From an uncultured Rhodobacterales bacterium (GTDB lineage: Bacteria; Pseudomonadota; Alphaproteobacteria; Rhodobacterales; Rhodobacteraceae), in contig CAYMMT010000006.1 of the NCBI GenBank assembly GCA_964391555.1, forward strand, positions 6,487 through 56,885: a stretch of 50,399 nt of DNA, written 5' to 3'. This document shows, piece after piece, positions 29,654-43,378 of this stretch. The notes beneath the pieces were generated by a model. It did no database searches. It saw only the letters and a program-made list of their open reading frames with translations, and was not told the DNA's origin. The position numbers and the translations under genes were made by a program. Position 1 is the stretch's first letter. Every line of letters begins with the position of its first letter.

Positions 29654-29799
29654 GTATCCTATGTCGAGTTGTGAGATTGTCTTTTCCAGAAGCATCGCGC
29701 CCTCCGCGCAAAGGGGCATGGCGCCGGGAGCAAGGCGTCGGAACTGGTCCTGTCTGGTCCATTTCGTCTCTCCCTCCCTCGGCGCCCCGCCAGGGTTTC

Positions 29800-30000
29800 G
29801 GTGTCTGCGGCGCGCGATATGCGCTGACCGGAGATGGCAGGTCTCCTGACTTGCGGGTCGCAGCTCTCCCGAACCTTCCCGGGCCGCCTTGAAAAGAAGG
29901 CCCAGTGGCATAGCCGGGGTCGCTCACCGCTTACAGTTGCGGGGGCAGTCACGGACTTGGGAAGATCCCGCACCGTGTTCCCTTTTCATCCCGTTGGGGC
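29800..30000 (-). promoter_or_regulatory. Cobalamin (B12) riboswitch
   Basis: The minus strand reads AAAAGGGAACACGGTG...AAGTCCGTGACTGCCCCCGCAACTGTAAGCGG...GCCACTGGGCC...GGCCCGGGAAGG...CCCGCAAGTCAGGAGACCTGCC. It contains the GCCACTG motif (29903-29909) and a canonical B12 box AGTCAGGAGACCTGCC (29836-29852). The outer boundaries are approximate. Confidence 0.9.
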
Positions 30001-30133: not shown

Positions 30134-33100
30134 TTAGGCCGGGGTATCGATGAGGAGGTCCTTGAGTTCGGGAAAATGGAGGTCGGTGACAAGATCGTAC
30201 ATCGACACGAGCCGTCCCGCGAAGGGCTTGTGGTCGGAAAGCCGTTCAAGAAGCGCTCGCAAGACCCCGCACCGATCCGCCGTTTCCACGACAACGCTGG
30301 CGTCGGTTGCGCGGTAGGGACTTTTTTCGTCGAACCGCAGGTCCAGAGGCCAAAGAGCGGCGCTTTCGATCGGTCCCGAAATGACCTCTTGCGCCACGTG
30401 ACTGTCGAGTTCCGCCAGGAGAGAAATGGCAGGCGGATAGAGTTCGGGGTTCAGACCCCGCAGCATGGTGACGTAGTGCCTCAGCTGAAACGAGCTCATG
30501 TCAGTGATATCGGCGACTTCGATCGGCCAGGTTTCGTCGAGACGATAAAACCTCTCCAGGACCGAAAGGGTCAGTGTCCGTTGCCGATACTCGTGCCACA
30601 ACGGCGCGAGGGCGGCCCTGTAGGGCGCGTCGATGAGCATTCCGGTGTCGCTATCCCGGCGCGCCAGCCGGTCGATGTCGGCGGGCTGACCCGCGGCAAG
30701 GCTCAGACCGTTGGCGGCCAGTTGACCGCCGGTCTTGTCCGCTTGATCGTCCCGGGAGCCAAGCGCCCGGGGTATCACCGGGCTGCGGCGATTGGTGGCG
30801 ACAGGGTTCTTGCGGTCGACGGTCGCAAGGTACGTGCCCAACGCCGCACCGACGGTCTCGAAATCCATGTATTCGGCGGCAATCGCAGCGCTGAGCAAAC
30901 CGGAAAAGCCATCGGAATATCCGGCGGAATGGATCTCCGCCGGAGCGACCCCTGGCGTCCAAGGCATGTGATCCGTGCAACGCAAGAGGACGGCAATGTA
31001 GAGCGCGTTTCCGAAGGGGTCCCGCCGGACGTCGTCCTCGAGGCCGATCAGGTCCTTGGAAAAGTCGGGAGAGCCCGCCTCGATTAGGCAGTTCCGCAGG
31101 AATTCCTGCGCGACGTCCGGTGCGGAGACGGCGGCCTTGTCCCACGACCGGCGCAGTTCGTAGGATTGCTCCAGAAGGGATGCCGTTGCCGGCCTCTGGT
31201 CCCTGGCAGGCTCGGCCAGCGCTGGCGCGTCTCCAGCTTCCGGAACTGGGGTGTTGATGAGATCGGAGAGTTCCTCCGCCATGCCTTTCGTGAAAATCTG
31301 GGTCCCGGTCTGCTGGACCGTATCCATCACCCGGCGACTGTCTGCGGCACGATACCGGTCCGGCAGGGCCGCCCGTTCGGCCGGGGACAGATCAAGTCCG
31401 CGCAGGTGACGGATCACCGCGCGCCATGTCACGGGCAGCGTAACCAGGTCACTGCCGAGGTGGCGGTCAAGGCGGTCCGCCAAATCCACCGGGAACTCAT
31501 CCGGCGGATCGGAGATGAACGCGCCGTAATAAAGCGCGTCGAGCGGGTCGTCGCCGGTGTTGCGTGTCTTGAAGAATGCTGCCGCCGTTGCGCAGACCTC
31601 AAGCGCCCGATCCCGCAGATCCTGCTTTCTCGCGCGGGCATCGCCCGTGTCTGTCGCGACGGGACCGGCCAGAAGACCCGGCAGCATCAGACGACGCAGG
31701 TCCGGGATATGGCGCACCTTGTCCAGCTCACCCGGGACGGGATCGACCAGCCAATACTGGTTGCGCAGGCGCATCAGAAGCTCTTCGGCCTCGGAAAGCG
31801 TCAGCGGGTCCTCCGACGTGGCACCCCGGTCGAGGCACGGACCCGCCAGAACGTTGAGGATAATCTCCGGATCTATGATCCGGAGCATGAGGCCGGGGTG
31901 GGCCAGTGGTCTGACCCTGGGGTCGGTGATCCGGTTTAGAATGCGCGTATAGAGGAATATTTGCGCAAATTCGGCTGCAAATCCGCCCTCGGCCTCGAGT
32001 TCCGCAATCAGGCCGTCCACGTCGCGAGGATTGCCGTCGGCATATTTGGCAAAGGCGATAATGGCGAGAGGATGACCGGCCAAGAGCCTGCAGACGGTCC
32101 GCGCCTTGGCCTCGTCGTGAAAAAGCGTGGTATTGGCCGGGTTCAACCGTTGCAGTTCGGCTCTCAGGAGCTTTGCCCCCGAAGGCGGGTAAAGGCCTTT
32201 GAGATGGACCCGGTCCCCGAACCACCGGTCCAGCTCGGCCTCGGTCAGCGGCTCCTCGCGACCGCTGACGATGACCCTCATGCCGGGCAGGTGGTTGAAC
32301 TGCAGGACGCTGAGCAGATCCATGATTTGCGAAACGACCTCATTGCCCATCGCGCGCTCCGGGGCGTCGTCGGGGAACTGGCGCTCCACGACCGCCAACC
32401 TGTCGATCGCTTCGAAAGTATCAAGGATGACCACCATCGACATGTCGGCCAGAGGCCTGGCCCAGTCCTCGTCCAACTTGTCGAGTTCATGCAGAACCCG
32501 GCTGAGTTGATCGAAATTGCTGTGCCTGTTGCCCGACTCGTCCACCTTGTAGAGCGCGATGTCCCGGCGCAGGGACGACAGACCGTCCAGCAGCGCGTCG
32601 TTTCCGTCGGGCGACTGCAATTGCAGATGCGCCGTGATCTGGCGAAAAAGCTCCTGCAGGATTTCGACGGGTTCACCGAGTGCCAACTGCCGCCGATCGA
32701 AATCCAGCAGGACCTGGATCAGATCCGGTTTGCTGCGTTGCCACGCGAGCATGAGGCTCGACAGAAGGGCCGATTTCCCCGCGCCGCCGATCCCGGTGAG
32801 CAGGAGCGGCTTTGCGTTCTCGCTCCGGCCCTTGGCGTGGTGGCTGATCCTGTCGCGCTGTGGCGTAAAGCCAAAATGCCGTCCCGGCATCACCACGCGC
32901 AGGTCGGTGCGGGCCTGCAGTTCCTTGATCTGGGCCGAGGCGAAACGCGAAAGCTCCCGAATTGTCATGGTTCGGTAGGCCATGCGGTCAGTCTTGCGAA
33001 CCTGACGTGTCGCAGTGGCGAGCGCGGGAACGTCTTTCGCAAACTCGGCGGCATCAAGAAGTGCGGCCGCGCGCGACAGCGCCTGTTGCAATGCGTCGAT

Positions 33101-33463
33101 GTCGGCCTTTGTCCCCGGGTCATCAAAGCTGATCCGGTCCATGGTCAGAACCTCGCGCAGCGCCCGGGTCAGCGGATCACCGGGGTCTTGGGGCGCGTCG
33201 TATTCCATGAAGTCCCGCAGGGCGCGGGGGGAAAAGAACTGGTTGAGCGCCGCCCGCCGCGCAGCGGGGTCAAGCTGCCAGCAATAGGTTCCGTCCTGAT
33301 CGATCTTCTCGTCCGCAACCGGGCTCAGGGTGCGCCACACGACGTCCCGGCGGGCGACGTCCCCTTGCGGGAGTTTCAATGCGCTGCACAGGCTCTCGAG
33401 CGTGAAGAGACCCGTCACACTGCCCGCTTTCAGGGCCTGCTGCGCGAGGAACCGGTCGTTCAT
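30134..33463 (-). CDS. NB-ARC/Apaf-1-like STAND NTPase with an unassigned N-terminal (~200 aa) and C-terminal (~520 aa) region (gene C of the protease operon)
   Basis: 1109 aa from MNDRFLAQQ, with an ATGA overlap with gene B. Walker A LLLTGIGGAGKSAL, Walker B MVVILDTFEAID, VIVSGREEP, a GxP motif LAGHPLAIIAF and a winged-helix-like segment. No TM helix or signal peptide. The 33637 start would overlap gene B by 178 nt and was rejected. Confidence 0.85.
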   Translation of the reverse strand: MNDRFLAQQALKAGSVTGLFTLESLCSALKLPQGDVARRDVVWRTLSPVADEKIDQDGTYCWQLDPAARRAALNQFFSPRALRDFMEYDAPQDPGDPLTRALREVLTMDRISFDDPGTKADIDALQQALSRAAALLDAAEFAKDVPALATATRQVRKTDRMAYRTMTIRELSRFASAQIKELQARTDLRVVMPGRHFGFTPQRDRISHHAKGRSENAKPLLLTGIGGAGKSALLSSLMLAWQRSKPDLIQVLLDFDRRQLALGEPVEILQELFRQITAHLQLQSPDGNDALLDGLSSLRRDIALYKVDESGNRHSNFDQLSRVLHELDKLDEDWARPLADMSMVVILDTFEAIDRLAVVERQFPDDAPERAMGNEVVSQIMDLLSVLQFNHLPGMRVIVSGREEPLTEAELDRWFGDRVHLKGLYPPSGAKLLRAELQRLNPANTTLFHDEAKARTVCRLLAGHPLAIIAFAKYADGNPRDVDGLIAELEAEGGFAAEFAQIFLYTRILNRITDPRVRPLAHPGLMLRIIDPEIILNVLAGPCLDRGATSEDPLTLSEAEELLMRLRNQYWLVDPVPGELDKVRHIPDLRRLMLPGLLAGPVATDTGDARARKQDLRDRALEVCATAAAFFKTRNTGDDPLDALYYGAFISDPPDEFPVDLADRLDRHLGSDLVTLPVTWRAVIRHLRGLDLSPAERAALPDRYRAADSRRVMDTVQQTGTQIFTKGMAEELSDLINTPVPEAGDAPALAEPARDQRPATASLLEQSYELRRSWDKAAVSAPDVAQEFLRNCLIEAGSPDFSKDLIGLEDDVRRDPFGNALYIAVLLRCTDHMPWTPGVAPAEIHSAGYSDGFSGLLSAAIAAEYMDFETVGAALGTYLATVDRKNPVATNRRSPVIPRALGSRDDQADKTGGQLAANGLSLAAGQPADIDRLARRDSDTGMLIDAPYRAALAPLWHEYRQRTLTLSVLERFYRLDETWPIEVADITDMSSFQLRHYVTMLRGLNPELYPPAISLLAELDSHVAQEVISGPIESAALWPLDLRFDEKSPYRATDASVVVETADRCGVLRALLERLSDHKPFAGRLVSMYDLVTDLHFPELKDLLIDTPA
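32771..32794 (-). other. Walker A codons (GIGGAGKS) of the STAND NTPase
   Basis: The reverse complement reads ggg atc ggc ggc gcg ggg aaa tcg. Confidence 0.9.
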
Positions 33464-35508
33464 TGCTCCGCCTCGTCCGTGGTGTCGAACAGGTCGGACG
33501 GCATATGGTCGACCACGAAGCGCGACATGGCCTGCAAGGGGGCCTCTTGTTGAGCATAGGAGCCCATGGTGCGGGACAACAGCTCGATGGCCGTGTCGTC
33601 CACGGCCGCACCAAGCGCCGTGCGCTGGCGAAACCATGTATCAAAGAGCTGGTCGAAATTGCTCAGATCGTCGGTGTCCGAGATCGTGCTCGTCACCACA
33701 TTGGCGCTGTTCACACCGCCGATCGCGTTTTCCCTTGGCAGACCGATCAAGACCACCCGCAAACCGGGGATCTGTTCAATCCGGTCATAAAGCGTGGCGA
33801 GGTATTCGCGGCCCGAGGCGTCCGATAGGCGATGATGTTCGAGGTCGTCGATCATCAGCCAGACCGACTGGTTGGGAAGTCTTTCCCGCATCTTGCTGAC
33901 CAGGATGTTGACCAGTTCCTGCACATAGGCCGCGGTGGTGGTCTGCGGCGTCTTGGGTAGGCCCGAGACAAGATCGGACGCGAAACTGTCCATCGTTTCA
34001 CTGACGAAGCTGAGCGCATCGGCCTCGGTCTCGCCGGCACGAAAAACGATGTGTTTGTGCTCTGGCGTCCGGAAAAGGCCCTCGATGATTTCGGTGGTAA
34101 AGCTCTTGCCCGGTTTCCTAACCGGCGTGCCGCCGGGTTCGTAGTGCACCATGAGGATGCGCTTTTTCGGATCCTCCCACATCTGCTGCAGCTTCCCCAG
34201 CAGGTCCCTGCGTCCGAAAAGCGGCTTGACCCCGTCCACGCATCCCAGGGGCGGGGCCAGACTGGCCGAGCGCCTGATCCGGTCGAAACTGCCCTTCGCC
34301 GCCAGATCATCGGCTATGTGCTTCAGCGAAATCGCCACATTCATGAAGAGCTTCGGCCCGGTGTCGACGTCCCGATACGCGATGCCGACGTGGTGCAGGC
34401 CGATCGGTTCCGCGATCTCGTTGATCAGGAGCCCGCCGGACGAACCTTGTGCGGTGGGCGCTTCGTGAAACAGGCGCACGTCCTTGCGGAACGAAAACTT
34501 CATGTCGCCCATCGTGATGGTCTGGTCGAGGCCCGATGGATGGTGCAGCGCGATGGCGAAACTCGGGAAGGCCTTCGGAAGCTTTTCGAGGTCGTACCAG
34601 CCACGTTGCAGTCCCGGCGCACTGTCGAGGCGCAGAACGGCATAGTCGAGGTTGCCTGCCATCTCCTGCAGGAAGGCGTTGCGAATTGCGTTGTCTTCCC
34701 ACCAGCGGTTTGGGGCGTTTTCGGGCTGCGCCTTGCCCATGGGGCTGGATGCGATGATCTGGTCCCCGGCCACCGGATGCCATGCGCCGGTAGCGGACTT
34801 CGTGCCCGTCGTCTCCGAATAGTCGAACCAGCAGGTGAGCGTCGTGGGGTCGAAAGGACCACTCGCAAGGTCATCCATGACGTGCTGGTTGGTGATCACC
34901 GCCGAGGGCCCGATCAGAAATCCGGTGCCCAGAGGCACGATGTCCTCGCGGTTGTTTTCGGCGACAATCCGACAAAGGCGCCGCCGCGCCTGGATGATCG
35001 CGGGCAGGACGTGGCCGGGATCCACCCAGGTCGGAATGTCGCCATGGGCCTGAGGGGTTGCGAGGGTCGCGTTCTGTGGCGTGGCCCGGGGCAGAAGCTG
35101 CGCGACCGCGTTTCCACCGACGCAACCGACCACGCGTTCCATCAGCTTGCGCCGGGTTTCGGCCGTCCCCTTGGCCGGGGCCCCGGCCGGATCGAACAAG
35201 CCCGCTGCAACCGCGCCGGCCATGAAAGACAGGACATGCGCGCCGTCGGGCAGGGATCCAAGGGCGAGCGCGAGGGCATCCGTATCCCTGGCCGGATCGA
35301 GCGCGCCATAGCCGGAGCGATCGAGGCCGGAGGCCACCGCGTAAAGAAACCCCGGGCACGCCGATCGCGTCCCGCCCTGCACCACCCACCTGTCGAAGTA
35401 CGACCGCACCATGCCACGGAAAAACGCCAGCCCCTCGGTCAATGCGATCATGTCCTCGGGTCGGACCCCGTCGACGCCGTCCCCGTTTTTCGTGGTCCCG
35501 CCCGTCAT
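33460..35508 (-). CDS. Trypsin-like serine protease fused to a degenerate P-loop NTPase-like module (gene B)
   Basis: 682 aa. Chymotrypsin-fold triad context GTGFLIGPSAVITNQHV (His209), LDYAVLRL (Asp288) and GSSGG (Ser357). C-terminal half: FGRRDLLGKL...GGTPVRKPGKSF (Walker-A-like with an insertion) and VWLMIDDLE (Walker B). No signal peptide. Confidence 0.85.
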   Translation of the reverse strand: MTGGTTKNGDGVDGVRPEDMIALTEGLAFFRGMVRSYFDRWVVQGGTRSACPGFLYAVASGLDRSGYGALDPARDTDALALALGSLPDGAHVLSFMAGAVAAGLFDPAGAPAKGTAETRRKLMERVVGCVGGNAVAQLLPRATPQNATLATPQAHGDIPTWVDPGHVLPAIIQARRRLCRIVAENNREDIVPLGTGFLIGPSAVITNQHVMDDLASGPFDPTTLTCWFDYSETTGTKSATGAWHPVAGDQIIASSPMGKAQPENAPNRWWEDNAIRNAFLQEMAGNLDYAVLRLDSAPGLQRGWYDLEKLPKAFPSFAIALHHPSGLDQTITMGDMKFSFRKDVRLFHEAPTAQGSSGGLLINEIAEPIGLHHVGIAYRDVDTGPKLFMNVAISLKHIADDLAAKGSFDRIRRSASLAPPLGCVDGVKPLFGRRDLLGKLQQMWEDPKKRILMVHYEPGGTPVRKPGKSFTTEIIEGLFRTPEHKHIVFRAGETEADALSFVSETMDSFASDLVSGLPKTPQTTTAAYVQELVNILVSKMRERLPNQSVWLMIDDLEHHRLSDASGREYLATLYDRIEQIPGLRVVLIGLPRENAIGGVNSANVVTSTISDTDDLSNFDQLFDTWFRQRTALGAAVDDTAIELLSRTMGSYAQQEAPLQAMSRFVVDHMPSDLFDTTDEAEQ
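33709..34221 (-). other. Degenerate P-loop NTPase-like module of gene B (approx. aa 430-600)
   Basis: A PGKS(F/T) motif and an hhhhDD Walker B about 85 residues apart. Boundaries are approximate. Confidence 0.55.
34309..34956 (-). other. Trypsin-like peptidase domain of gene B (approx. aa 185-400)
   Basis: His/Asp/Ser motifs as listed for gene B. Boundaries are approximate. Confidence 0.7.
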
Positions 35509-35517
35509 CGCGCCCCG

Positions 35518-38322
35518 TCAGTCCAGAACGCCGGTATCAAAGACGCCATCACCGACGGACAGGACCGCGTCAATGTCATGGGCGTAGTTCTGGGACAGCG
35601 TGCCACCGCCGAAATGCAGACCGCAGAACTCCATCGCGCCATGCAGGGAGATCACGGCGGAGCCGGAATTGCCCGCCAGCGTCGTGGCATCGTGAGTGAA
35701 GGTCCATGCCCTGGTATCCCCGCTCACGGTACCGGGGCGCGACATGACCTTGCCGGGGCTGAGGTATTGCTTGCCGTATTCCTCGCCATAAAGCTCGTCG
35801 ATACGGTCCCAGAACGGCAGGAAGTCATCACTGCTTGAGGCCGGACCGCTGCTGCCGCTGGGCCGCGCCGGGTATCCCGACAAAAGGATGTCCGTCAGGG
35901 ACGGGTCGGTCATCGACACGAGCGTGGTATCGAGCGGCAGGGGCGGGGGCTCGTGACCGTTGTCGGTGTTCATCGCGACCACCGCCATGTCGAGCTTGCC
36001 CAGATCCACCAGCCGTCCGATGGGTGATTTGCCCGCCGTGATGATGTCGGTCAATTCGTAGCGGGTGGTCTCATCCTCGGCTTCGGGGTCAAAGATGATC
36101 GAGGCGTTTCGCCGTTTCAGGAACGCCTGATCGCCGGGGGCGGCGGGCAGCCCGTCGACAAAGGTATCGATGACGTGGCGGTTGGTCATGACCCGTCCGT
36201 CGGCCATGACGAATCCGGTCCCCGCATGAGCCCAGGTCCCATTGGGCATCTGCACATCCACCCGGCCCACGGCAGCCGTCAGCCGCTGCCACCGGCGGCG
36301 CGTGGCGACAAGGATGGAGGCCCAGTTTTCCAGTCGGGGGTCCCGGATTTCGCTCCCGTCGGCCTTGACCCTCACCGCGGGCCGCCCGGTGAGCCTGACC
36401 AGCGCTTCGATAGTCGCCCGTTGCTCTTCGGGGACCGCGTCGGGCAGGGCCGCATCGTCCGCCAACGCCGACAGCAGCGCATCGAACCGCCGCATCGCTT
36501 CGTTTTGGGTCTCCTGGTTCACGAGGTTTCCCGCGGCCTCCTGCCGTTTGGACAGGGCCGACTGGACCTGATCCATCACGGATTGGGTGCCTTCGGTCCG
36601 CAGGGTTTCCACCGCGGTCTCCGCGCTCAACTCGGCGGCGCTCTCCAACGTGCGGTTGCCGCGCAGCGCCAGGCGGCGGAATGTCTGGTCGAGCGGCAGT
36701 GGCGGCGTGGCCGGCGCACCGATTGCCGCCGGGGCCGGAAAGACACCCGGCTGGGCCAGGCTGATCCGGGATGCGAACTGAGGCGAAGGCGCCGGGGGCA
36801 GGGCGGTTTCGAGGCGCCCGGAAAACCCCTCTCCGGCTCTGATTTGCCAGTCCAGCGCGATGAAGTTGGCCTCGGCTTCAAAAGCGGTCCCGGCGAAATC
36901 CTGTCCGAAGGCCGCGAGGGCCGGACTTGAGGATTCCGTCGGGGCGGGTGCGCCGGGCAGGGCGGCCAAATCCGTGGCGAGGAGCCTTTCGGCATCCACG
37001 ATCCCGGCTCCCATGTTGGTGGCGTCCCAGCCCGGCGGGGTCTCGGCGGTGTGTCTCAGGGCCAATCGAAACAGGTCATTGACGGTAATCTGCCGGTCTG
37101 CCGCGGCCTGCCGGATCGCGTTCCCCCCGAAGCGTTCGATCCAGAGCGCCGCGACCCCGGCCGTCAACGCCACCGCGAAGGACGTGCCTTGCCCCCGCGC
37201 ATTCACATCCGCCAATTCGCCGGGCGAAGGCTGGTGCCCCGGCGGGACCGCGACACGTCGGGCGACATACACGTTTTCGCCCGGCGCGGAGACATCGACC
37301 GTCGGACCCGAACAGGATCCTTTCCACTTCCTCTTGTCCTTATCGACCCCGGCGATAGCGATGACGTTTGCGGTGTTGGCCGGAAAGGTCACGTTGCCCA
37401 CGCAATTGCCCGCGGCCGCCAGCACGATCATTCCGCTCTCCACCGCGCGCCTGACGGAGCGGTTGATCGAGCGCGACCACAAGCCGCCAAGGCTCATCGT
37501 GACGATCGCGCAGCCCTGCCGGCGGGCATGGTCGATCCCGGACGCAATGGCCCGACCTGACAATCCGATCACCACACGGTTCATCACCCGGATCGGGATC
37601 AGTGTTGCGCCGCGCGCCGTGCCGGTGACGTGTCCGGACGGACGGCTGATGGCCACGCTCGACGTTCCCGTTCCGTGACCGGGAGAGGCCATGTCCGGGC
37701 TGAGCGGGTCCGTTGGATCGGCCCGGTCGGCAAGGAAATCGTAGCCCCGAGCGACGTCCAGCCCGCTATGCAACTCGCCATGGGTCGCCACGCCGGTATC
37801 AGGCTGGCCGATCAGGACGCCCGCGCCGGTCACGCCGAACCGGGCCTCCGCCTGTGGCACCTTCATCATCTTGCGCGCCCATTCGCTGTCATCCGACCCG
37901 TCGGCCTGCGATTGGCAACGCCGCCAGACCGCTTCACCGATACCTTCCGTCGCCCTTGGCGCGGTGAGGAGTTCGGAATAGGGGGCCTCGATCGCCGGGA
38001 TCACCGCGTCGATATCCAGAGCCTCGCGCAAGTCCCCCGCCTCCTTGAGCAGGAGTTCCGGCGATTGCTCCCGCGGCAAATTCGGAAACTGGAGGATGAG
38101 GACTTCGGGCGCGTCTTCGTCGGAGAGCGTGAAGAGATCAAAGTTGCCCGCGCCAAGCAGGCTTTCCAGCCGTGCCCGTTCCGCCTCCACATTCGGTGGC
38201 TCCGCGTATTCCAGCTCGAATGCCAGAATGTCCTCCGGCATCGCGCGGCTGTTCCGGCGTTCTCCGAAACGCGCGGCCGCTTTCAGTAAATCGAGCATTC
38301 GATCCCCCATACTCTGGCCCAT
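35518..38322 (-). CDS. Dual serine protease: N-terminal subtilase (S8) domain plus C-terminal trypsin-like domain (gene A)
   Basis: 934 aa. S8 triad motifs LIGQPDTGV (Asp175), SPGHGTGTSS (His216), AAAGN (Asn305) and GQGTSFAVALTAG (Ser381). A long Ala/Pro-rich linker spans aa ~445-640. The trypsin-like part has GTGFVMADGRVMTNRHV (His716), LDMAVV (Asp778) and AGNSGSAV (Ser886). No signal peptide. Confidence 0.85.
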   Translation of the reverse strand: MGQSMGDRMLDLLKAAARFGERRNSRAMPEDILAFELEYAEPPNVEAERARLESLLGAGNFDLFTLSDEDAPEVLILQFPNLPREQSPELLLKEAGDLREALDIDAVIPAIEAPYSELLTAPRATEGIGEAVWRRCQSQADGSDDSEWARKMMKVPQAEARFGVTGAGVLIGQPDTGVATHGELHSGLDVARGYDFLADRADPTDPLSPDMASPGHGTGTSSVAISRPSGHVTGTARGATLIPIRVMNRVVIGLSGRAIASGIDHARRQGCAIVTMSLGGLWSRSINRSVRRAVESGMIVLAAAGNCVGNVTFPANTANVIAIAGVDKDKRKWKGSCSGPTVDVSAPGENVYVARRVAVPPGHQPSPGELADVNARGQGTSFAVALTAGVAALWIERFGGNAIRQAAADRQITVNDLFRLALRHTAETPPGWDATNMGAGIVDAERLLATDLAALPGAPAPTESSSPALAAFGQDFAGTAFEAEANFIALDWQIRAGEGFSGRLETALPPAPSPQFASRISLAQPGVFPAPAAIGAPATPPLPLDQTFRRLALRGNRTLESAAELSAETAVETLRTEGTQSVMDQVQSALSKRQEAAGNLVNQETQNEAMRRFDALLSALADDAALPDAVPEEQRATIEALVRLTGRPAVRVKADGSEIRDPRLENWASILVATRRRWQRLTAAVGRVDVQMPNGTWAHAGTGFVMADGRVMTNRHVIDTFVDGLPAAPGDQAFLKRRNASIIFDPEAEDETTRYELTDIITAGKSPIGRLVDLGKLDMAVVAMNTDNGHEPPPLPLDTTLVSMTDPSLTDILLSGYPARPSGSSGPASSSDDFLPFWDRIDELYGEEYGKQYLSPGKVMSRPGTVSGDTRAWTFTHDATTLAGNSGSAVISLHGAMEFCGLHFGGGTLSQNYAHDIDAVLSVGDGVFDTGVLD
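35578..36270 (-). other. Trypsin-like peptidase domain of gene A (approx. aa 685-915)
   Basis: H-D-S motifs in chymotrypsin-fold order. The His716 codon cac is at 36177-36175. Confidence 0.7.
36988..37845 (-). other. Subtilase (peptidase S8) domain of gene A (approx. aa 160-445)
   Basis: D-H-N-S motifs in canonical subtilase order. The Ser381 codon tcc is at 37182-37180. Confidence 0.75.
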
Positions 38323-38592
38323 CCCTTGACGCAGCGTAACAGAGGGATTTCAGGCCGTTAAGGATTTTTGCACGTCCTGATTGAGTCGGTTGTCATCGAT
38401 TGGGCCGGGTTGCGCGGGGCTTCGGCTACAAAACCTGAATTCAGTTAAGGCGCTGATAAAAATAGTTTAATGAAGGTTTTCAATGGAAGTTGACGTAGGG
38501 TCCTTGCCATCAATGAACGGTGGATTGTACGCTGAAAACACTGCTGCAATCCGATTTCGACCGTTAACACAATTCAATTGAGAGGACGCATT

Positions 38593-40035
38593 ATGACCGT
38601 TCGAGTGCGACAGGATGTTTATGCACTTCCATCAGGAGACATGACGCTGGATTGGTACCGGCAGGCCGTGGCCCTGATGCAAAGCCGAGGCCTTGATGAC
38701 CCCACAAGCTGGTGGTGGATCGGCGCTGTCCACGGCCGACCTCAACCGCCGCAGTTCCCGCCTGCACCGGTCGGCGCGTCCGCCTTCTGGGATCAATGCC
38801 AGCACCAGACGTGGTTCTTCCTGCCGTGGCATCGCGGATATCTCGCCGCATTCGAGGCGACGGTTGCCAAGGCGGTCGAGGAATTGGGGGGGCCAACCGA
38901 CTGGGCTCTGCCGTATTGGAATTATTCCGAAAGCCTTGTCACGAACCCGGAGGCCCGTCGCCTGCCCCCCGCCTTCCGCAGTCCGAACCTGTCCGACGGA
39001 TCACCCAATGCGCTCTTTGCGCCGCGCGGCGCGGACGCAAACGGCGAGTTCGGGCTTCGCAGCGTCGATGTCTCGCTCGACGCGTTGACCCAGAGTGTCT
39101 TTACGCCCGTGTCGGGGGTTTCGGCGGGCTTCGGTGGGCCGAGCACCGGGTTTTCGCATTTCGGCATGGCCAGCGGTGCGCTGGAAAACATCCCCCACAA
39201 CGTCCTCCATGGCCGGATTGGCGGTTGGATGGGAAATCCCAACACGGCCGCTTTCGACCCGATCTTCTGGCTGCACCACTGCAATATCGACCGGCTCTGG
39301 GAGGTCTGGCGCGACGCCGACCCGGCCCATCTGAACCCCGCCGACCCCGACTGGCTGGCCAATGTGCCGTTCGAGTTGCATGATGAAGACGGCACGCCCT
39401 TCAGTTTCACCAGCGCCGAGATGGAGAACACGACAACCGTGCTCCATGGGTATCAATATGACAGCGTGCCCCCGCCGGCGGTTGTCGTGGCCGGCGGTCC
39501 GACAGGAGGCGTAACCGAAATGGCTGACCTGGAGAGCCCCCCTGAACTTGCCGGTGCGTCCGAGGCCCCCTTGCCTCTGCGGGGCGACCGGACCCCGGCC
39601 AAGGTCCGCATCGACACGGCCGGGCTTGACCGGATGAGCGAGGGGCTGCTCGCCCCGAGCGTCAAGGTCTATCTGCGGCTGGAAGGGGTCAGGGGGACCG
39701 GTGTGCCGGCGGACTACGATGTGTTGATCGACCTCGAAGGGGACGGGATAGAGCCGATCCAGGTGGGCGTGCTGTCGACCTTTGGTGTCGCGAATGCGAG
39801 CGATCCGGAGTCGGACCACGGTGGCGTTGGCATAACGCAAGTCTTTGATATCACTGCCTCGGCCGAGCGGCTTAACCTTACGGACGGCAGCGCATCCGAA
39901 TTGAACGTGAGTTTTCATCGCGTCGCACAAGGCCCTGTTACCGAGATGGCCCTGCCCCTTGTCGACGGGGGCGACGTCCCTGCCGAAGCGGCCTCGTCCG
40001 TGGAGATTGGACGCATCGGCGTCTATTTCGAATGA
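38593..40035 (+). CDS. Tyrosinase / polyphenol-oxidase-like type-3 copper protein with a C-terminal extension
   Basis: 480 aa from MTVRVRQDV, with a GAGAGGA RBS. CuA His in AVHG, CQHQ and PWHRGYL. CuB His in IPHNVLHG and FWLHHCNIDRLW. A Pro/Gly/Ala linker (aa ~296-335) is followed by a ~145-aa extra domain. No signal or Tat motif. Confidence 0.9.
   Translation: MTVRVRQDVYALPSGDMTLDWYRQAVALMQSRGLDDPTSWWWIGAVHGRPQPPQFPPAPVGASAFWDQCQHQTWFFLPWHRGYLAAFEATVAKAVEELGGPTDWALPYWNYSESLVTNPEARRLPPAFRSPNLSDGSPNALFAPRGADANGEFGLRSVDVSLDALTQSVFTPVSGVSAGFGGPSTGFSHFGMASGALENIPHNVLHGRIGGWMGNPNTAAFDPIFWLHHCNIDRLWEVWRDADPAHLNPADPDWLANVPFELHDEDGTPFSFTSAEMENTTTVLHGYQYDSVPPPAVVVAGGPTGGVTEMADLESPPELAGASEAPLPLRGDRTPAKVRIDTAGLDRMSEGLLAPSVKVYLRLEGVRGTGVPADYDVLIDLEGDGIEPIQVGVLSTFGVANASDPESDHGGVGITQVFDITASAERLNLTDGSASELNVSFHRVAQGPVTEMALPLVDGGDVPAEAASSVEIGRIGVYFE
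39598..40032 (+). other. C-terminal extension domain of the tyrosinase (aa ~336-480)
   Basis: It lies beyond the copper-binding core, after a low-complexity linker. Beta-rich-looking sequence (VKVYLRLEGVRGTG...YDVLIDL...VSFHRV...IGVYFE). Boundaries are approximate. Confidence 0.5.
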
Positions 40036-40826
40036 CCCTGTCGCGAGGGGTGCCCGCGCGATCGGGCCCCCCGATCTTTCGAACGGATATCCTGGCAAAC
40101 CCGGGCCTGTCCGTGCCCTTGGGATTGGCGGCGCTGGCCTGGCTGGCGCTGGGCCTGTTGGCGCGGAGCTCGGGGGGTCTTCCCCTTTGCATCGGTGGCC
40201 CGAACGCGTTCGGATGGCAATTGCAATCCGCGTGGGTCGCAGAGGTGACGTGTCTTGATCCGATGATCGCGGTGCGTTGGGCATTGATGGTTTTCGCGAT
40301 GATGTTGCCCGTTGCGGCGCCTCATTTCAGCGTTGCCGTGGCCAAGACGCGGCCGCGCCACCAAGGGGTCGTTCTGGCAGCGGCGCTGATCTCTTATGTG
40401 GTGGTCTGGCTGGCGTTGGGAGTGCCCTACCTCGTGCTCTTCGTGATCTCGGCGGCCATCGACGGCGCATCGCCCTGGCCCTTGGGTCCTGTCGGGGTCT
40501 TTGGCCTTGCGATTTTGTGGAGCCTTTTGCCTCTGCGCCAATCCGCTTTGCGGCGGTGCCATCGGGTCCCCGCCTTTTTTGGCGGCGGTCCAGCGCAGGC
40601 CCAGTCCGCTGCCAACTGGGGCGCCGGCCTGGCCGTCGATTGCGCGGCGGTTTGCTGGCCTGCCATGGCCGCGGTGATGCTGTCGGGGCAGGGGATCATG
40701 GGGATGTTCGTCGTGACCCATGTCCTGTTGTCCGAACGCCTCGCCGAGCGTCCGCGGAAGCCGTTCACAACCTGGCCGCTCGCTTTGTTGGCCTGTGCTG
40801 CGGTCGTCAAGTCCGGGCTCGCCTAG
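40032..40826 (+). CDS. DUF2182-like predicted metal-binding integral membrane protein
   Basis: 264 aa with about 6 TM helices. The WALMVFAMMLPVAAP motif and conserved Cys/His (RRCHRVP and DCAAVCWPAMA) resemble DUF2182. ATGA overlap with the tyrosinase stop. Confidence 0.6.
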   Translation: MTLSRGVPARSGPPIFRTDILANPGLSVPLGLAALAWLALGLLARSSGGLPLCIGGPNAFGWQLQSAWVAEVTCLDPMIAVRWALMVFAMMLPVAAPHFSVAVAKTRPRHQGVVLAAALISYVVVWLALGVPYLVLFVISAAIDGASPWPLGPVGVFGLAILWSLLPLRQSALRRCHRVPAFFGGGPAQAQSAANWGAGLAVDCAAVCWPAMAAVMLSGQGIMGMFVVTHVLLSERLAERPRKPFTTWPLALLACAAVVKSGLA

Positions 40827-41110: not shown

Positions 41111-43378
41111 GTGCAGCCCGACAACGACGCCATGTTGACATTTGCCCGCTTCGGTATCCGCCTGTTCTGGCTGCGGCAGGTGATGTTTGTCGGCGCGACG
41201 GTGATCACGTCGGCGTATCTCGAAAACGCGATGCCGATCATTCTGTATCTCGTCTGCCTTGGCGCGGAACTGAGCGAGGTCCGCCTGTCTCACGGTGTTC
41301 TTCGGGAACAGGTCCTGTCAGAGGACCGCCTTCGCCAACTGGTCCGGCACCACGGCTGGGTCGCCGTTTGGAGCGCCACCGGAGTCAGCGTCTATGCAGT
41401 CCTTTCCGCATGGATGGGCCCGCCGGAATACCTATTTGTTCCAATGGCCTACCTATTTTCTGCCGCACTTTATGCGACGATGTTCAACCATCAGATCAGC
41501 CAGATTCTCCTGCCCCGGATGATGATCTATTCGGTTGGCTTTCTGCTCATCGCCGGCCTTGGCCTGACCTCGGTCGGATCGGACCAGCTTCTGCTGGGCT
41601 TTGCTCAGTTCCTCACCTTGGTCTCGGCGGCACTGTTCATCGCCATCAACGCCATCGTCATGCGGCGCAGTTATACAGACCGTCAACGGCAACTGCGTGA
41701 GGCCGAAGAACGGGAGGACCGCCTGCTGAAGGAAATCAGGGACCGTCAAACGGCCGAGGACGCCCGGCACAGCAGCGATCAGCGCTTTCGGACTCTTTTC
41801 GAGAACGCTCCGATCCCGATCCGGGAAGAGGACCTGTCCGGCATGAAACGGCTGATTGATCAGGTGAATCTGCCCGACCCGCAGGACTTTGGCCGGTTCA
41901 TTGACGACAACCCCGACTTTCTGAGGGAATGCGCCGACGCAATCGTGGTGGTCGACGCCAATCGTGCCTCGCTTCTGCAGCATGGCTACGCCGAAAAGAC
42001 AGAGATGCTGAAACACGTTGTGCGCGAGCTCGCGCCCGCAGCGCAAGACGTTGTCCGCATGACGGCCACGGCCTTGAACGCCGGCGACCCCGGACGCAGC
42101 TACCAGACCCGGATTCGCCGAACCGACGGTGAGGAGCGGACGGTCGCCGCCACCTGGTCGGTCCTGCCCGGCCACGAAGACACCTATGCCCGGATCCTGC
42201 TGTGTTCCATCGACATGACCGACCGGCTCGCCGCCGAAGAGGCGCTGCTTCAGGCGCAGAAGATGGAGGCCGTCGGGCAACTGACGGGGGGCGTCGCCCA
42301 TGACATCAACAACCTGCTGACGGTCATTCGCGGCAATGTCGATCTGTTGGAGTCCACCATTGATCTGGATGGCTCCCTGTCTGAACCGATCAAGAGCGCG
42401 ATCGACCGCGGGGCCGAGTTGACGCGGGGGCTTCTCGCCTTTTCCCGCAAGCAACCGCTATCGCGACGGACGTTCGAACTGGGCGAGCACATCCGCCGCA
42501 TGACAACCCTTCTCCGCCGGACACTGGGCGAGGAAAACCTCATTGAGATCGACATCCCCGACGATCTCTGGCCCGTCTTTGCAGATGCCGCCCAAGTGGA
42601 GGCGGCGCTTCTGAACCTCGCTCTAAATTCGCGGGACGCCATGGTGGATGGTGGGGTCTTGACGATTTCCTGCCGCAACCTCCCGATCGATACGGGCAAT
42701 GAGATGGAGTTGGAGGCCGGGGACTACGTGGTGCTGAGCGTGGCCGACACCGGGATCGGCATGGATGCTCAAACCCGCAGTCGCGCCATTGATCCGTTTT
42801 TCACGACGAAGGAGCCGGATGCCGGCACGGGGCTGGGGCTGTCCATGGTGTACGGTTTTGCCAAGCAATCCGGCGGAACCCTTCATATCGAAAGTACGCC
42901 GGGGGAGGGGACTGCGATCTCACTTTACCTTCCAAGGTCCACACAGGGCGCGGTCGCGGTCGCTCAATCCGACGATACCGAGACGCATGCAGAGGCCCGG
43001 GGGCAGACGATACTGGTGCTCGAGAACGACGACGGCGTGCGAAGTTTTCTCACCCGCCTGCTGGAAACCAGCGGCTACGAGGTGCTGCAAGCCGACAGCG
43101 CCGAAACCGCTCGGGACGTCGTGGCCGGCGCCTCGCGGATCGATCTGCTGTTGTCGGACATCATGCTGCCCGGCGGGACTCGCGGTCCCGAGTTCGCGCG
43201 GGAGATGCTTGACAGGAACAACGCGCTGCCGGTGATCTTCATGTCCGGTCGGCCAAGCGAGATCGAATCCGCCGCTTCTGTTGGCTTCGGCGATGCGTCG
43301 GTTTTGGCCAAACCCTTTACCAAGGATGCGCTTCTCGGGCGCATTTCCAGAAGCCTTGCTGCGCGGTCGGTCACCTGA
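41111..43378 (+). CDS. Hybrid sensor histidine kinase (membrane region, PAS, HisKA, HATPase, receiver)
   Basis: 755 aa. N-terminal TM helices, a PAS-like region, H-box GGVAHDINNLLTVIRGN, N/G boxes (LNLALNSRDAM and GTGLGLSMVYGF), and a C-terminal receiver (ILVLENDD...LLLSDIMLPG...KPF). The alternative start is ATG 41132. Confidence 0.85.
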   Translation: MQPDNDAMLTFARFGIRLFWLRQVMFVGATVITSAYLENAMPIILYLVCLGAELSEVRLSHGVLREQVLSEDRLRQLVRHHGWVAVWSATGVSVYAVLSAWMGPPEYLFVPMAYLFSAALYATMFNHQISQILLPRMMIYSVGFLLIAGLGLTSVGSDQLLLGFAQFLTLVSAALFIAINAIVMRRSYTDRQRQLREAEEREDRLLKEIRDRQTAEDARHSSDQRFRTLFENAPIPIREEDLSGMKRLIDQVNLPDPQDFGRFIDDNPDFLRECADAIVVVDANRASLLQHGYAEKTEMLKHVVRELAPAAQDVVRMTATALNAGDPGRSYQTRIRRTDGEERTVAATWSVLPGHEDTYARILLCSIDMTDRLAAEEALLQAQKMEAVGQLTGGVAHDINNLLTVIRGNVDLLESTIDLDGSLSEPIKSAIDRGAELTRGLLAFSRKQPLSRRTFELGEHIRRMTTLLRRTLGEENLIEIDIPDDLWPVFADAAQVEAALLNLALNSRDAMVDGGVLTISCRNLPIDTGNEMELEAGDYVVLSVADTGIGMDAQTRSRAIDPFFTTKEPDAGTGLGLSMVYGFAKQSGGTLHIESTPGEGTAISLYLPRSTQGAVAVAQSDDTETHAEARGQTILVLENDDGVRSFLTRLLETSGYEVLQADSAETARDVVAGASRIDLLLSDIMLPGGTRGPEFAREMLDRNNALPVIFMSGRPSEIESAASVGFGDASVLAKPFTKDALLGRISRSLAARSVT

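What the first reader, a model, noticed from the sequence alone, without database searches (positions are those of the whole stretch)
35518..40826. Protease operon sits divergently next to a latent-type tyrosinase: possible bacterial analogue of a prophenoloxidase activation cascade
**Seen in the sequence**
- The protease/STAND operon and a type-3-copper tyrosinase gene diverge from one 270-bp AT-rich spacer.
- The tyrosinase has all six copper-ligand His contexts and no secretion signal.
- After the catalytic core (about aa 1-295) it has a Pro/Gly/Ala-rich linker (aa ~296-335) and an extra ~145-aa C-terminal domain.

**Established knowledge**
- Plant and fungal polyphenol oxidases are latent until a C-terminal shielding domain is removed proteolytically. 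This has also been reported for Verrucomicrobium spinosum tyrosinase.
- Arthropod prophenoloxidase is switched on by a trypsin-like serine-protease cascade as an immune effector.

**Inference (speculative)**
- The STAND-controlled proteases could cleave the linker and unleash intracellular quinone or melanin chemistry as a toxic effector.
- Adjacency may equally be coincidental.
Basis: inference. Interest (0 to 1): 0.7.

Follow-up and report, generated by a model that had tools for sequence, protein, structure and literature searches.

The report
Latent tyrosinase wired to protease–NTPase system
A copper enzyme that makes reactive quinones and melanin is built here in a locked form, and it sits beside a set of regulated proteases in bacteria from several phyla, which suggests, without yet proving, a bacterial counterpart of the insect melanisation cascade.

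Summary
The tyrosinase (38593-40035) belongs to the same family as Hahella HcTyr1 (PDB 8B74). HcTyr1 is a crystallised latent enzyme: a C-terminal lid plugs the copper site with Phe397, and the form that has lost the lid is about 10-fold more active. The window protein has the same invariant Phe397, a disordered linker and no signal peptide. The downstream "DUF2182" gene is PpoB2, the known copper chaperone for this tyrosinase type.

The adjacency is not coincidental. The same five genes (STAND-like NTPase, trypsin-NTPase, S8+trypsin protease, then divergently tyrosinase and PpoB2) recur at 53-75% tyrosinase identity with flanking genes that differ from those of the window. Non-orthologous serine proteases, with or without STAND NTPases, sit in co-directional operons with this tyrosinase type in Gemmatimonadota, Acidobacteriota, Actinomycetota and Nitrosospira. 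Rhizobia carry a single-protein S8-tyrosinase fusion.

The protease operon matches a conflict system that has been predicted but not tested (Kaur et al. 2020, "System 3"). The usual cargo of that system is a NucA nuclease, and tyrosinase has not been reported as cargo. No one has shown cleavage, toxicity or an immune role. I rate this a new variant of a known kind, with high interest.

The parts
30134..33463 (-). Gene C: 1109-aa STAND-like P-loop NTPase. It has an N-terminal region, an NTPase domain with GIGGAGKS and VVILDTFE motifs, and a C-terminal region of about 600 aa with no family match.
   Evidence: Pfam gives NACHT E=3.4e-5 and AAA_16 E=4e-4, both below the curated cut-offs. There is no PADLOC or NCBIfam hit. 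Its start overlaps the stop of B by ATGA. An equivalent gene is conserved in L001, L002, L085, L087, L170-L173.
33460..35508 (-). Gene B: 682-aa protein with an N-terminal region, a trypsin-like protease domain and a C-terminal P-loop NTPase region (RKPGKSF, WLMIDDLE).
   Evidence: Pfam Trypsin_2 at 194-371. The triad H209/D288/S357 and G467 of the P-loop are invariant in 11 orthologues. The orthologue in L122 also hits AAA_16. This matches the 'STAND NTPase with N-terminal trypsin' component of Kaur et al. 2020 System 3.
35518..38322 (-). Gene A: 934-aa double protease. Its parts are a propeptide-like domain (about 10-110), a disordered linker (116-135), an S8 subtilase (166-426), a Pro/Ala-rich linker, a helical domain (about 566-682) and a trypsin-like protease (701-895).
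   Evidence: Pfam S8 E=9e-29 and Trypsin_2 E=1e-9. Both catalytic triads are invariant in 22 homologues: S8 D174/H215/S380 and trypsin H715/D777/S885. AF2 model pLDDT is 78.9. Foldseek matches subtilisins, including unprocessed pro-subtilisin E. The PADLOC model 'nacht' hits residues 555-916 at E=1.5e-22.
38323..38592 (.). 270-bp divergent intergenic spacer, 47% G+C.
   Evidence: No sigma-70 consensus and no inverted repeat was found. Spacers of homologous loci are also AT-rich but are not conserved in sequence.
38593..39477 (+). Tyrosinase catalytic core (aa 1-295), a type-3 copper site.
   Evidence: Pfam PF00264 E=3.6e-34. The His ligands are invariant. Model pLDDT is above 90.
39478..39540 (+). 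Flexible linker (about aa 296-316), the candidate cleavage region.
   Evidence: Low model confidence over about residues 300-320, below 50 at 307-312. The equivalent linker 302-314 is disordered in the HcTyr1 crystal.
39541..40035 (+). C-terminal lid domain (DUF7868, aa 317-478) with placeholder Phe397 (codon TTT at 39781-39783), then the stop codon.
   Evidence: Pfam PF25271 E=1.6e-22. F397 is invariant and aligns with HcTyr1 Phe397. Foldseek top hit is 8B74 (TM 0.77/0.85), followed by latent plant polyphenol oxidases.
40032..40826 (+). PpoB2-type membrane copper chaperone (formerly DUF2182/COG5486), translationally coupled to the tyrosinase.
   Evidence: Pfam PF09948 E=8.3e-21. ATGA overlap with the tyrosinase. 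A PpoB2 match follows the tyrosinase in most of the 80 genome loci (about 60). Its role in copper transfer to PpoB1 in Marinomonas mediterranea is described in PMC2855505.

Best explanation
The tyrosinase is a cytoplasmic zymogen. Its C-terminal lid (DUF7868) inserts Phe397 over the dicopper site, and PpoB2 loads the copper.

In this lineage the tyrosinase-PpoB2 pair has been recruited as cargo of a three-gene protease/NTPase module:
- C is a STAND-like NTPase.
- B is a trypsin-like protease fused to a P-loop NTPase.
- A is a pro-subtilase fused to a second trypsin-like protease.

The proposed sequence is as follows. A trigger sensed by the NTPases switches on B and/or A, possibly as a short cascade, because A itself looks like a zymogen. 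An activated protease then cuts the exposed linker (about residues 300-320) and the lid leaves. The enzyme then oxidises free or protein-bound tyrosine and other phenols to quinones inside the cell, causing cross-linking, reactive oxygen and melanin. The system would work as a suicide or growth-arrest effector, in the same way that related operons deploy a NucA nuclease.

Shown:
- The lid architecture and the conserved placeholder residue.
- Intact catalytic residues in all three protease domains.
- Recurrent gene linkage and a gene fusion.

Inferred:
- The cleavage itself.
- Which protease performs it.
- Control by the NTPases.
- The toxic or immune outcome.
For: Latency:
- The protein is in the same family as HcTyr1 (PDB 8B74): E=1e-79 by sequence, and it is the Foldseek top hit at TM 0.77/0.85.
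- In HcTyr1 the lid with Phe397 covers the site, linker 302-314 is disordered, and the cleaved form is about 10-fold more active. Its activator is unknown.
- Window F397 aligns with that residue and is invariant in 70 homologues.
- The Marinomonas family member is described as an SDS-activated tyrosinase.

Linkage:
- Identical five-gene modules occur in L001, L002, L171 and L172, and in L092 with the same genes; L095 is cut within gene A. The flanks that were read differ from those of the window.
- Ferrimonas (a gammaproteobacterium) carries a variant without the S8 domain, beside an integrase.
- L173 has both a Trypsin-NucA fusion and the tyrosinase in one cluster.
- Co-directional operons with gaps of 40 bp or less:
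  - L122: Tyr-PpoB2-A-B.
  - L006: Tyr-PpoB2-S8-B-STAND.
  - L022: Tyr-PpoB2-EAD1-trypsin-x-STAND/TPR.
  - L016: Trypsin-PLD, EAD1-trypsin, STAND, Tyr, PpoB2.
  - L044: Tyr-PpoB2-S8.
- In 80 representative genomes, 13 protease genes lie within 3 kb of Tyr/PpoB2 and 3 lie beyond. Those 3 belong to the same clusters (binomial p=2e-4).
- Linked loci fall in at least six separate tyrosinase clades.
- One 975-aa rhizobial protein fuses S8 to a tyrosinase.

Conflict-system context:
- A-B-C matches System 3 of Kaur et al. 2020.
- A homologues are followed by NucA in about 25 of 84 loci.
- EAD1 domains sit on the linked trypsins.
- Protease-activated pro-effectors are established for Hachiman and AVAST.
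Against: - No experiment shows that any of these proteases cuts any tyrosinase.
- HcTyr1 lost its lid without an added protease over months of storage.
- Linkage is facultative. About 70 of 80 tyrosinase-PpoB2 loci have no protease neighbour. One close homologue at 59% identity sits among housekeeping genes. Close A-B-C operons such as that of Ruegeria pomeroyi lack a tyrosinase.
- The linker shows no motif specific to the linked subset.
- An intracellular polyphenol oxidase can protect rather than harm, as with Streptomyces MelD2.
- The window locus is flanked by transporters and a histidine kinase, not by known defence genes.
- C is only weakly STAND-like by Pfam, and PADLOC does not recognise B or C as known defence proteins.
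- The System 3 operons themselves have never been tested.
Confidence: 0.5

Rival explanations
1. The proteases are dedicated maturation enzymes for ordinary melanin or pigment production, or for phenol detoxification. The NTPases act as a physiological switch, for example in response to stress, copper or phenolics. There is no conflict or immune role and no self-toxicity.
For: - The founding PpoB1/PpoB2 operon makes melanin in Marinomonas.
- Several loci have only an S8 protease next to Tyr-PpoB2, with no NTPase (L026, L044, L069, L027, L032).
- The secreted rhizobial S8-tyrosinase fusion looks like a self-maturing enzyme.
- Intracellular MelD2 is protective.
- The window's flanks are metabolic and a histidine kinase follows PpoB2.
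Against: - In the STAND-containing loci, the same operons or their close relatives carry NucA or PLD toxin domains fused to trypsin, and EAD1 adaptor domains. These are the features by which Kaur et al. 2020 recognise conflict systems.
- The module moves between unrelated contexts and sits by an integrase, an Acb2/Tad1-like gene and a transposase.
- Two NTPases and three protease domains would be heavy machinery for a housekeeping maturation step.
Confidence: 0.25
2. The adjacency reflects co-transfer on the same mobile islands without biochemical interaction. The tyrosinase-PpoB2 pair and the protease system are independent cargo.
For: - Both modules occur alone far more often than together.
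- Some loci lie next to integrase or transposase genes.
- In Rhizobium phaseoli plasmids the two are about 16 kb apart.
Against: - Linkage recurs with non-orthologous proteases, in at least six tyrosinase clades and five gene orders, with gaps of 40 bp or less or overlapping genes.
- All protease hits in the 20-kb neighbourhoods belong to clusters contiguous with the tyrosinase, and none lies elsewhere in 782 kb of outer flanks.
- A single-polypeptide S8-tyrosinase fusion exists.
Confidence: 0.1
3. The functional arrow points the other way or sideways. The tyrosinase modifies a product or component of the protease system. For example, it might hydroxylate or cross-link tyrosines on peptides released by the proteases, on an invader protein, or on the proteases themselves. 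In that case it is not the proteases' substrate.
For: - Tyrosinases oxidise peptidyl tyrosine; this rests on established enzymology, not on a test here.
- L173 carries NucA as well, so the tyrosinase need not be the terminal effector.
Against: - The lid-and-placeholder architecture with an exposed linker is the signature of an enzyme that has to be unlocked.
- No precursor-peptide gene or other biosynthetic gene is conserved with the module.
Confidence: 0.1

Closest known systems
HcTyr1, latent tyrosinase of Hahella sp. CCB MM4 (PDB 8B74; PMC11609597)
   Same: It has the same two-domain family (PF00264 + DUF7868), the same placeholder Phe397 and a disordered linker, and the form that has lost the lid is about 10-fold more active.
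   Different: Identity in the structural alignment is only 34%. HcTyr1 was studied as an isolated enzyme, its physiological activator is unknown, and no protease partner was considered. Its genomic neighbourhood was not examined here.
PpoB1/PpoB2 melanin operon of Marinomonas mediterranea (PMC2855505)
   Same: A tyrosinase is followed by a PpoB2 (COG5486) copper chaperone in one operon, and the tyrosinase is described as SDS-activated.
   Different: That operon is known for melanin synthesis and has no reported protease/NTPase partner. The identity of PpoB1 to the window protein was not measured here.
Kaur, Burroughs, Iyer and Aravind 2020, 'System 3': multiple peptidase domains coupled to NucA-like endonuclease (PMC7159879)
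   Same: It is mostly alphaproteobacterial. It includes trypsin-like peptidases, an S8 peptidase, a STAND NTPase with an N-terminal trypsin and optional EAD1. A proteolytic cascade was predicted to deploy the effector. A homologues are followed by NucA in many loci.
   Different: The window has no NucA. Tyrosinase-PpoB2 occupies the neighbouring position instead. The paper does not mention tyrosinase or any oxidase. The system is a computational prediction.
Gated pro-nuclease + trypsin-like protease pairs in Hachiman and AVAST (Tuck et al., Science 2025; PMC12799240)
   Same: A sensor-coupled trypsin-like protease cleaves a proenzyme whose active site is masked, releasing a toxic activity. This is the experimentally proven logic closest to the one proposed here.
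   Different: The effector there is a metallo-beta-lactamase-fold nuclease, and the sensors are Hachiman or Avs. No homology with those components was detected here, and PADLOC gives no Avs or Hachiman hit.
Arthropod prophenoloxidase activation cascade
   Same: A serine-protease cascade converts a latent type-3 copper oxidase into an active producer of cytotoxic quinones and melanin as an immune output (abstract of PMC4700666).
   Different: The arthropod cascade is extracellular and uses clip-domain proteases. Its oxidase belongs to the arthropod hemocyanin-type family and is activated by an N-terminal cut; those points rest on established knowledge. Here the system is cytoplasmic, uses S8/Trypsin_2 proteases and has a C-terminal lid. 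At most it is convergent.
Plant/fungal latent polyphenol oxidases and Verrucomicrobium spinosum pre-pro-tyrosinase
   Same: A C-terminal domain shields the copper site and is removed to activate the enzyme. Latent apple, tomato and aurone-synthase structures are the next-best structural matches.
   Different: Those enzymes are secreted or targeted to plastids, and no dedicated NTPase-regulated protease genes are linked to them.

Membership tests
Type-3 copper tyrosinase (PF00264) | CuA and CuB sites with three His each (H-x(n)-H-x8-H and H-x3-H-x22-H). | tested here: met
   H47/H71/H80 and H202/H206/H229 are present and invariant in 70 homologues. Pfam E=3.6e-34.
Lid-bearing latent bacterial tyrosinase (HcTyr1 type, DUF7868) | C-terminal DUF7868 domain. 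| tested here: met
   PF25271 E=1.6e-22 at residues 317-478, above the cut-off.
Lid-bearing latent bacterial tyrosinase (HcTyr1 type, DUF7868) | Placeholder residue from the lid over the dicopper site. | tested here: met
   Window F397 aligns with the crystallographic placeholder Phe397 of 8B74 and is invariant.
Lid-bearing latent bacterial tyrosinase (HcTyr1 type, DUF7868) | Low activity until the lid is removed. | not testable with these tools
   This needs an enzyme assay. It has been shown only for HcTyr1.
PpoB1/PpoB2 operon | A PpoB2 (PF09948) copper-chaperone gene directly downstream of the tyrosinase. | tested here: met
   PF09948 E=8.3e-21 with an ATGA overlap. The arrangement is conserved in most of the 80 loci, about 60.
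Kaur et al. 2020 System 3 (NucA-trypsin conflict system) | Trypsin-like peptidase(s), optionally with an S8 peptidase. | tested here: met
   A has S8 + Trypsin_2 and B has Trypsin_2, with intact triads.
Kaur et al. 2020 System 3 (NucA-trypsin conflict system) | NucA (Endonuclease_NS) endonuclease as a core component. | tested here: not met
   There is no NucA anywhere in the window (best tblastn E=0.13). It is present in related loci L086-L088, L097, L101-L115, L173 and L174.
Kaur et al. 2020 System 3 (NucA-trypsin conflict system) | A STAND NTPase fused to an N-terminal trypsin domain through a Death-like domain (bDLD2). | tested here: inconclusive
   B has the trypsin domain followed by a P-loop region, and the L122 orthologue hits AAA_16. 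No Pfam model reported a Death-like domain.
STAND NTPase (gene C) | NACHT/NB-ARC-type P-loop domain with a C-terminal sensor region. | tested here: inconclusive
   NACHT scores 24.2 bits (cut-off 26.7) and AAA_16 scores 21.3 bits (cut-off 32.6). Walker A and B motifs are visible in the sequence. Orthologues in L006, L016 and L022 hit AAA_16, nSTAND1 and TPR.
Known anti-phage systems (PADLOC-DB v2) | Component proteins match the models of a described system. | tested here: not met
   Only A (residues 555-916) hits a model named 'nacht'. B has weak hits, and C, the tyrosinase and PpoB2 have none.
Arthropod prophenoloxidase cascade | Clip-domain serine proteases and an arthropod-type prophenoloxidase, acting outside the cell. 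| tested here: not met
   The proteases are S8/Trypsin_2 without a clip domain. The oxidase matches tyrosinases, plant polyphenol oxidases and mollusc hemocyanin units. It has no signal peptide.

The most novel reading that the evidence does not exclude
Bacteria possess an intracellular melanisation or quinone-burst arm of immunity. A STAND-type sensor triggers a serine-protease cascade that removes the lid of a copper-loaded pro-tyrosinase, and the infected cell is killed or cross-linked from within. This would be a convergent counterpart of the arthropod prophenoloxidase cascade. Tyrosinase would be a new class of effector, interchangeable with NucA or PLD nucleases in the same chassis.
Probability: 0.35. 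Interest if true: 0.88.

Novelty: new variant of a known kind. Interest (0 to 1): 0.72.

Why it matters
The physiological activator of lid-bearing bacterial tyrosinases is an open question. The enzyme whose structure was solved lost its lid "spontaneously" over months. These loci name concrete candidate proteases, encoded next door or fused in one polypeptide.

The result would also add an oxidative, copper-dependent enzyme to the list of bacterial conflict effectors. That list is currently dominated by nucleases, NADases, pore-formers and proteases. It would provide a bacterial parallel to melanisation immunity in animals and wound browning in plants.

It also gives the untested Aravind-type "System 3" operons an easily scored read-out, because pigment formation is visible by eye.

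Tried and rejected
- **Co-regulation through the spacer.** No sigma-70 consensus, terminator or inverted repeat was found. Spacers from nine divergent loci are AT-rich but align poorly. Only a palindrome shared by two near-identical loci was seen. Co-regulation therefore could not be assessed.
- **A cleavage motif specific to protease-linked tyrosinases.** The linker and the PELAGAS start of the lid look the same in linked and unlinked members. No signature was found.
- **Naming B and C.** NCBIfam and PADLOC gave nothing useful.
- **NucA in the window.** None is present.
- **Literature on tyrosinase in phage defence or conflict systems.** Nothing was found in the held library.
- **De novo clustering of genes neighbouring A.** The result was too noisy, because of antisense ORFs, to define further cargo families.
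- **Rhizobium phaseoli plasmids.** They carry both an A homologue and a tyrosinase, but about 16 kb apart, so they were not counted as linked.
- **Matching 'longest contig' lengths between tyrosinase and A hit lists.** This suggested about nine further co-located pairs. Three of them (P0002/P0123, P0008/P0147, P0018/P0131) are confirmed by look-up. The rest are indirect evidence only.

Full report
**1.
The window carries three tightly packed minus-strand genes:
- C: 30134-33463.
- B: 33460-35508. The B/C junction overlaps by ATGA.
- A: 35518-38322. A and B are 9 nt apart.

Two plus-strand genes diverge from them: the tyrosinase (38593-40035) and the next gene (40032-40826), which overlap by ATGA. 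The spacer between the two sets is exactly 270 bp at 47% G+C, against 63.8% for the window.

Pfam assigns these domains:
- A: Peptidase_S8 plus Trypsin_2.
- B: Trypsin_2.
- C: weak NACHT/AAA_16 hits, below the curated cut-offs.
- Tyrosinase: PF00264 plus DUF7868 (317-478).
- The "DUF2182" gene: PF09948, now named PpoB2, a copper chaperone.

The six His ligands are present and invariant in 70 homologues. There is no signal peptide.

**2. The tyrosinase is a member of a characterised latent family.**
More than 3,500 proteins share the tyrosinase + DUF7868 architecture. One of them has been solved: HcTyr1 from Hahella sp. CCB MM4 (PDB 8B74). It matches the window protein at E=1e-79 over residues 4-432.

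The AlphaFold model of the window protein is confident (pLDDT 91.9), apart from residues 300-320 and a loop near 450-460. HcTyr1 is its best structural match (TM 0.77/0.85). The next matches are the Ralstonia tyrosinase 7XIO and latent apple, aurone-synthase and tomato polyphenol oxidases.

The HcTyr1 paper reports these points:
- A lid domain lies over the active site.
- Phe397 is the placeholder residue.
- Linker 302-314 is disordered.
- A form that had lost the lid was about 10-fold more active.
- None of the conditions tested induced significant cleavage, so the physiological activator is unknown.

Window Phe397, in the motif TFG, aligns with HcTyr1 Phe397, in LFG, and the residue is invariant in the family. 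The pairing with PpoB2 reproduces the Marinomonas mediterranea ppoB operon, whose tyrosinase was described as SDS-activated. Calling this a "latent-type tyrosinase" is therefore well founded.

**3. The protease operon is a predicted conflict system.**
- All three protease domains keep their catalytic triads in every orthologue aligned: A S8 D174/H215/S380, A trypsin H715/D777/S885, and B H209/D288/S357.
- B continues into a P-loop region.
- C has Walker motifs and weak NACHT similarity.
- The model of A has a beta-alpha-beta-beta-alpha-beta domain (10-110), then a disordered stretch (116-135), ahead of the subtilase. Foldseek lists unprocessed pro-subtilisin E with 441 aligned columns. A may therefore itself be a zymogen; this is an inference.
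- The A family has at least 877 members, mostly in Alphaproteobacteria. One is on the Ruegeria pomeroyi DSS-3 megaplasmid.
- A-B-C is a conserved core.

This core matches "System 3" of Kaur et al. 2020. That system is alphaproteobacterial and combines trypsin and S8 peptidases, a STAND NTPase with an N-terminal trypsin, optional EAD1 and a NucA endonuclease. The authors proposed that a proteolytic cascade deploys the NucA endonuclease. Consistent with this, about 25 of 84 loci anchored on A carry Endonuclease_NS directly after A or after A-B-C. The paper mentions neither tyrosinase nor any oxidase. The window has no NucA.

**4. The linkage test.**

*Anchored on the tyrosinase.* The same divergent five-gene module occurs in L001 (75% identity), L002 (60%; L003, L004 and L005 are copies or relatives of the same locus), L171 (53%) and L172 (54%). 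The flanks that were read (L001, L002, L171, L172) differ from those of the window. Among loci anchored on A, L092 has the same genes, and L095 has the tyrosinase, PpoB2 and the start of A before the contig ends.
- Ferrimonas balearica, a gammaproteobacterium at 55% identity, has STAND, trypsin-NTPase and trypsin divergent from Tyr-PpoB2, beside an integrase and an Acb2/Tad1-like gene.
- L173 (55%) has a Trypsin-NucA fusion, STAND, B and a split A divergent from Tyr-PpoB2. Nuclease and tyrosinase can therefore coexist in one cluster.
- One homologue at 59% identity is unlinked.
- Among the 20 closest tyrosinase clusters, seven are linked by direct look-up and four more by matching contig lengths. 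One is unlinked, and the rest were not examined.

*More distant tyrosinases* show different, co-directional arrangements with gaps of 40 bp or less:

| Locus | Organism | Gene order |
|---|---|---|
| L122 | metagenome contig, unnamed | Tyr-PpoB2-A-B |
| L006 | Roseobacter | Tyr-PpoB2-S8-trypsin/NTPase-STAND |
| L022 | Acidobacteriota | Tyr-PpoB2-EAD1-trypsin-x-STAND/TPR |
| L016 | Gemmatimonadales | Trypsin-PLD, EAD1-trypsin, STAND/TPR, Tyr, PpoB2 |
| L010 | MAG labelled Actinomycetes | Trypsin-NucA fusion and an S8 upstream of the tyrosinase |

In addition, single cytoplasmic-looking S8 genes sit next to Tyr-PpoB2 in Nitrosospira, an actinomycete and Mesorhizobium montanum.

*Statistics.* In the 80 representative-genome loci, custom profiles found 13 protease genes within 3 kb of Tyr/PpoB2 (429 kb of sequence) and 3 further out (782 kb). 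Those three belong to the same clusters (binomial p=2e-4). The linked loci fall in at least six separate clades of a tyrosinase tree.

*Fusion.* Sinorhizobium americanum and seven related clusters encode one 975-aa lipoprotein-like polypeptide. It combines S8, a tyrosinase and a C-terminal region that resembles the lid by eye (no DUF7868 match was reported), and it is followed by a trypsin gene and a second S8 gene.

*Anchored on A.* The tyrosinase is a minority cargo. Among close A relatives with enough flank, 1 of 4 carries it. None of 18 more distant relatives does, and 8 of those 18 carry NucA instead.

Conclusion: the link is real and recurrent, but facultative.

**5. Mechanism.**
The simplest reading is that one of the adjacent proteases removes the lid by cutting the exposed linker. 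The NTPases would gate that event. The tyrosinase would be an alternative or additional pro-effector on a chassis that elsewhere deploys NucA or PLD.

Tuck et al. 2025 provide an experimental precedent for this logic. In their work, trypsin-like proteases coupled to Hachiman or AVAST sensors cleave a gated pro-nuclease.

Several things are not shown:
- That any cleavage occurs.
- Which of the three protease domains acts on the tyrosinase.
- Whether A is first processed by B.
- What triggers C.
- Whether active cytoplasmic tyrosinase is harmful.

On the last point the literature points both ways. Tyrosinase-generated quinones are toxic, yet the intracellular MelD2 of Streptomyces protects against phenolics.

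**6. Rival explanations.**
- *Ordinary maturation for pigment production (about 0.25).* This fits the loci that have only an S8 protease, and it fits the secreted fusion. It does not explain the NucA, PLD and EAD1 company or the mobility of the module.
- *Hitch-hiking on shared islands (about 0.1).* This is contradicted by the recurrence with non-orthologous proteases, the operon-level packing and the fusion.
- *A reversed or sideways relationship, with the tyrosinase modifying peptides or proteins of the system (about 0.1).* This cannot be excluded. It ignores the zymogen architecture.

**7. Comparison and novelty.**
Each component is known or predicted:
- The lid-bearing tyrosinase (HcTyr1).
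- The PpoB2 chaperone.
- The System 3 protease/NTPase chassis.
- Protease-activated pro-effectors.

Their combination does not appear in the literature I could search. It is a new variant of a known kind.

It is not a member of the arthropod prophenoloxidase system. It lacks clip domains, its oxidase belongs to a different lineage and it is cytoplasmic. It may nevertheless work like that system. It also fails one defining feature of System 3, because NucA is absent from the window, so it is best described as a derivative of that system with the effector swapped.

**8. Limits.**
All evidence is comparative or predicted. Many loci come from metagenome bins. The A-anchored sample of close relatives is small. 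The contig-length matches are indirect. The placeholder geometry rests on alignment to the crystal structure rather than on measured distances in the model.

Noticed in passing
L175 5240-8167 (Sinorhizobium americanum CCGM7 plasmid B, NZ_CP013053.1 110502-113429): One 975-aa protein combines a lipoprotein-type signal (..AASLGC), an S8 subtilase, a tyrosinase and a C-terminal region that resembles the lid by eye. It is followed by a Trypsin_2 gene and a second S8 gene. Eight clusters of this fusion exist in rhizobia (Mesorhizobium, Rhizobium sp. BK077, Ensifer aridi, R. johnstonii).
   Followed up: partly
L016 2188-5028; L010 7374-9641; L173 1-1828; L174 15750-17726: Trypsin-like proteases are fused in one polypeptide to toxin domains: PLDc_2 in L016 and Endonuclease_NS in L010, L173 and L174. 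All sit in clusters related to the A-B-C system, which suggests self-contained protease-plus-pro-toxin units.
   Followed up: partly
L085 (Ruegeria pomeroyi; also DSS-3 megaplasmid NC_006569.1 221575-224325): A model marine bacterium carries A-B-C without a tyrosinase or NucA nearby. Next to it are a Crp-family regulator and a 1007-aa SAM/guanylate-cyclase/AAA_16 protein. L171 has the same Crp and FAD-oxidase neighbours, but with Tyr-PpoB2 inserted.
   Followed up: partly
L170 905-2387 (Ferrimonas balearica): The module lies beside an Acb2/Tad1-hairpin gene (a fold known from phage anti-defence proteins), a phage integrase fragment and an HNH gene. On the other side are five large genes with no family match.
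   Followed up: no
window 35518-36660 (A residues 555-916): The PADLOC model named 'nacht' (PDLC03010) matches the helical-plus-trypsin half of A at E=1.5e-22, not the NTPase C. I could not find out which candidate defence system that model belongs to.
   Followed up: no
window 37990-38295 (A residues 10-110): The model of A shows a beta-alpha-beta-beta-alpha-beta domain and then a disordered segment ahead of the subtilase, as in subtilase propeptides. A may need processing itself. Pfam reports no Inhibitor_I9 hit.
   Followed up: partly
L086 12836-22805 (Mesorhizobium): Another arrangement: A is followed by NucA, a separate S8, a 565-aa protein with no family match, an AAA_5 ATPase and a protein of more than 1600 aa, without B or C. 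The same 570-aa family follows NucA in 15 metagenome loci.
   Followed up: no
Rhizobium phaseoli plasmids, e.g. NZ_CP013550.1 15008-17737 and 33422-35008: An A homologue and a tyrosinase-family gene lie on the same plasmid about 16 kb apart in many strains. I did not count this as linkage.
   Followed up: no
L002 and L092 spacers between A and the tyrosinase: Both spacers share the palindrome TTGTTCATGACGAACAA, a possible operator. It was seen only in these two closely related loci and is absent from the window spacer.
   Followed up: no
window 41111-43378 and 29393-29911: A hybrid histidine kinase (PAS, HisKA, HATPase, receiver) follows PpoB2 on the same strand. A 172-aa ORF downstream of C has no family match and may not be a gene.
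   Followed up: no
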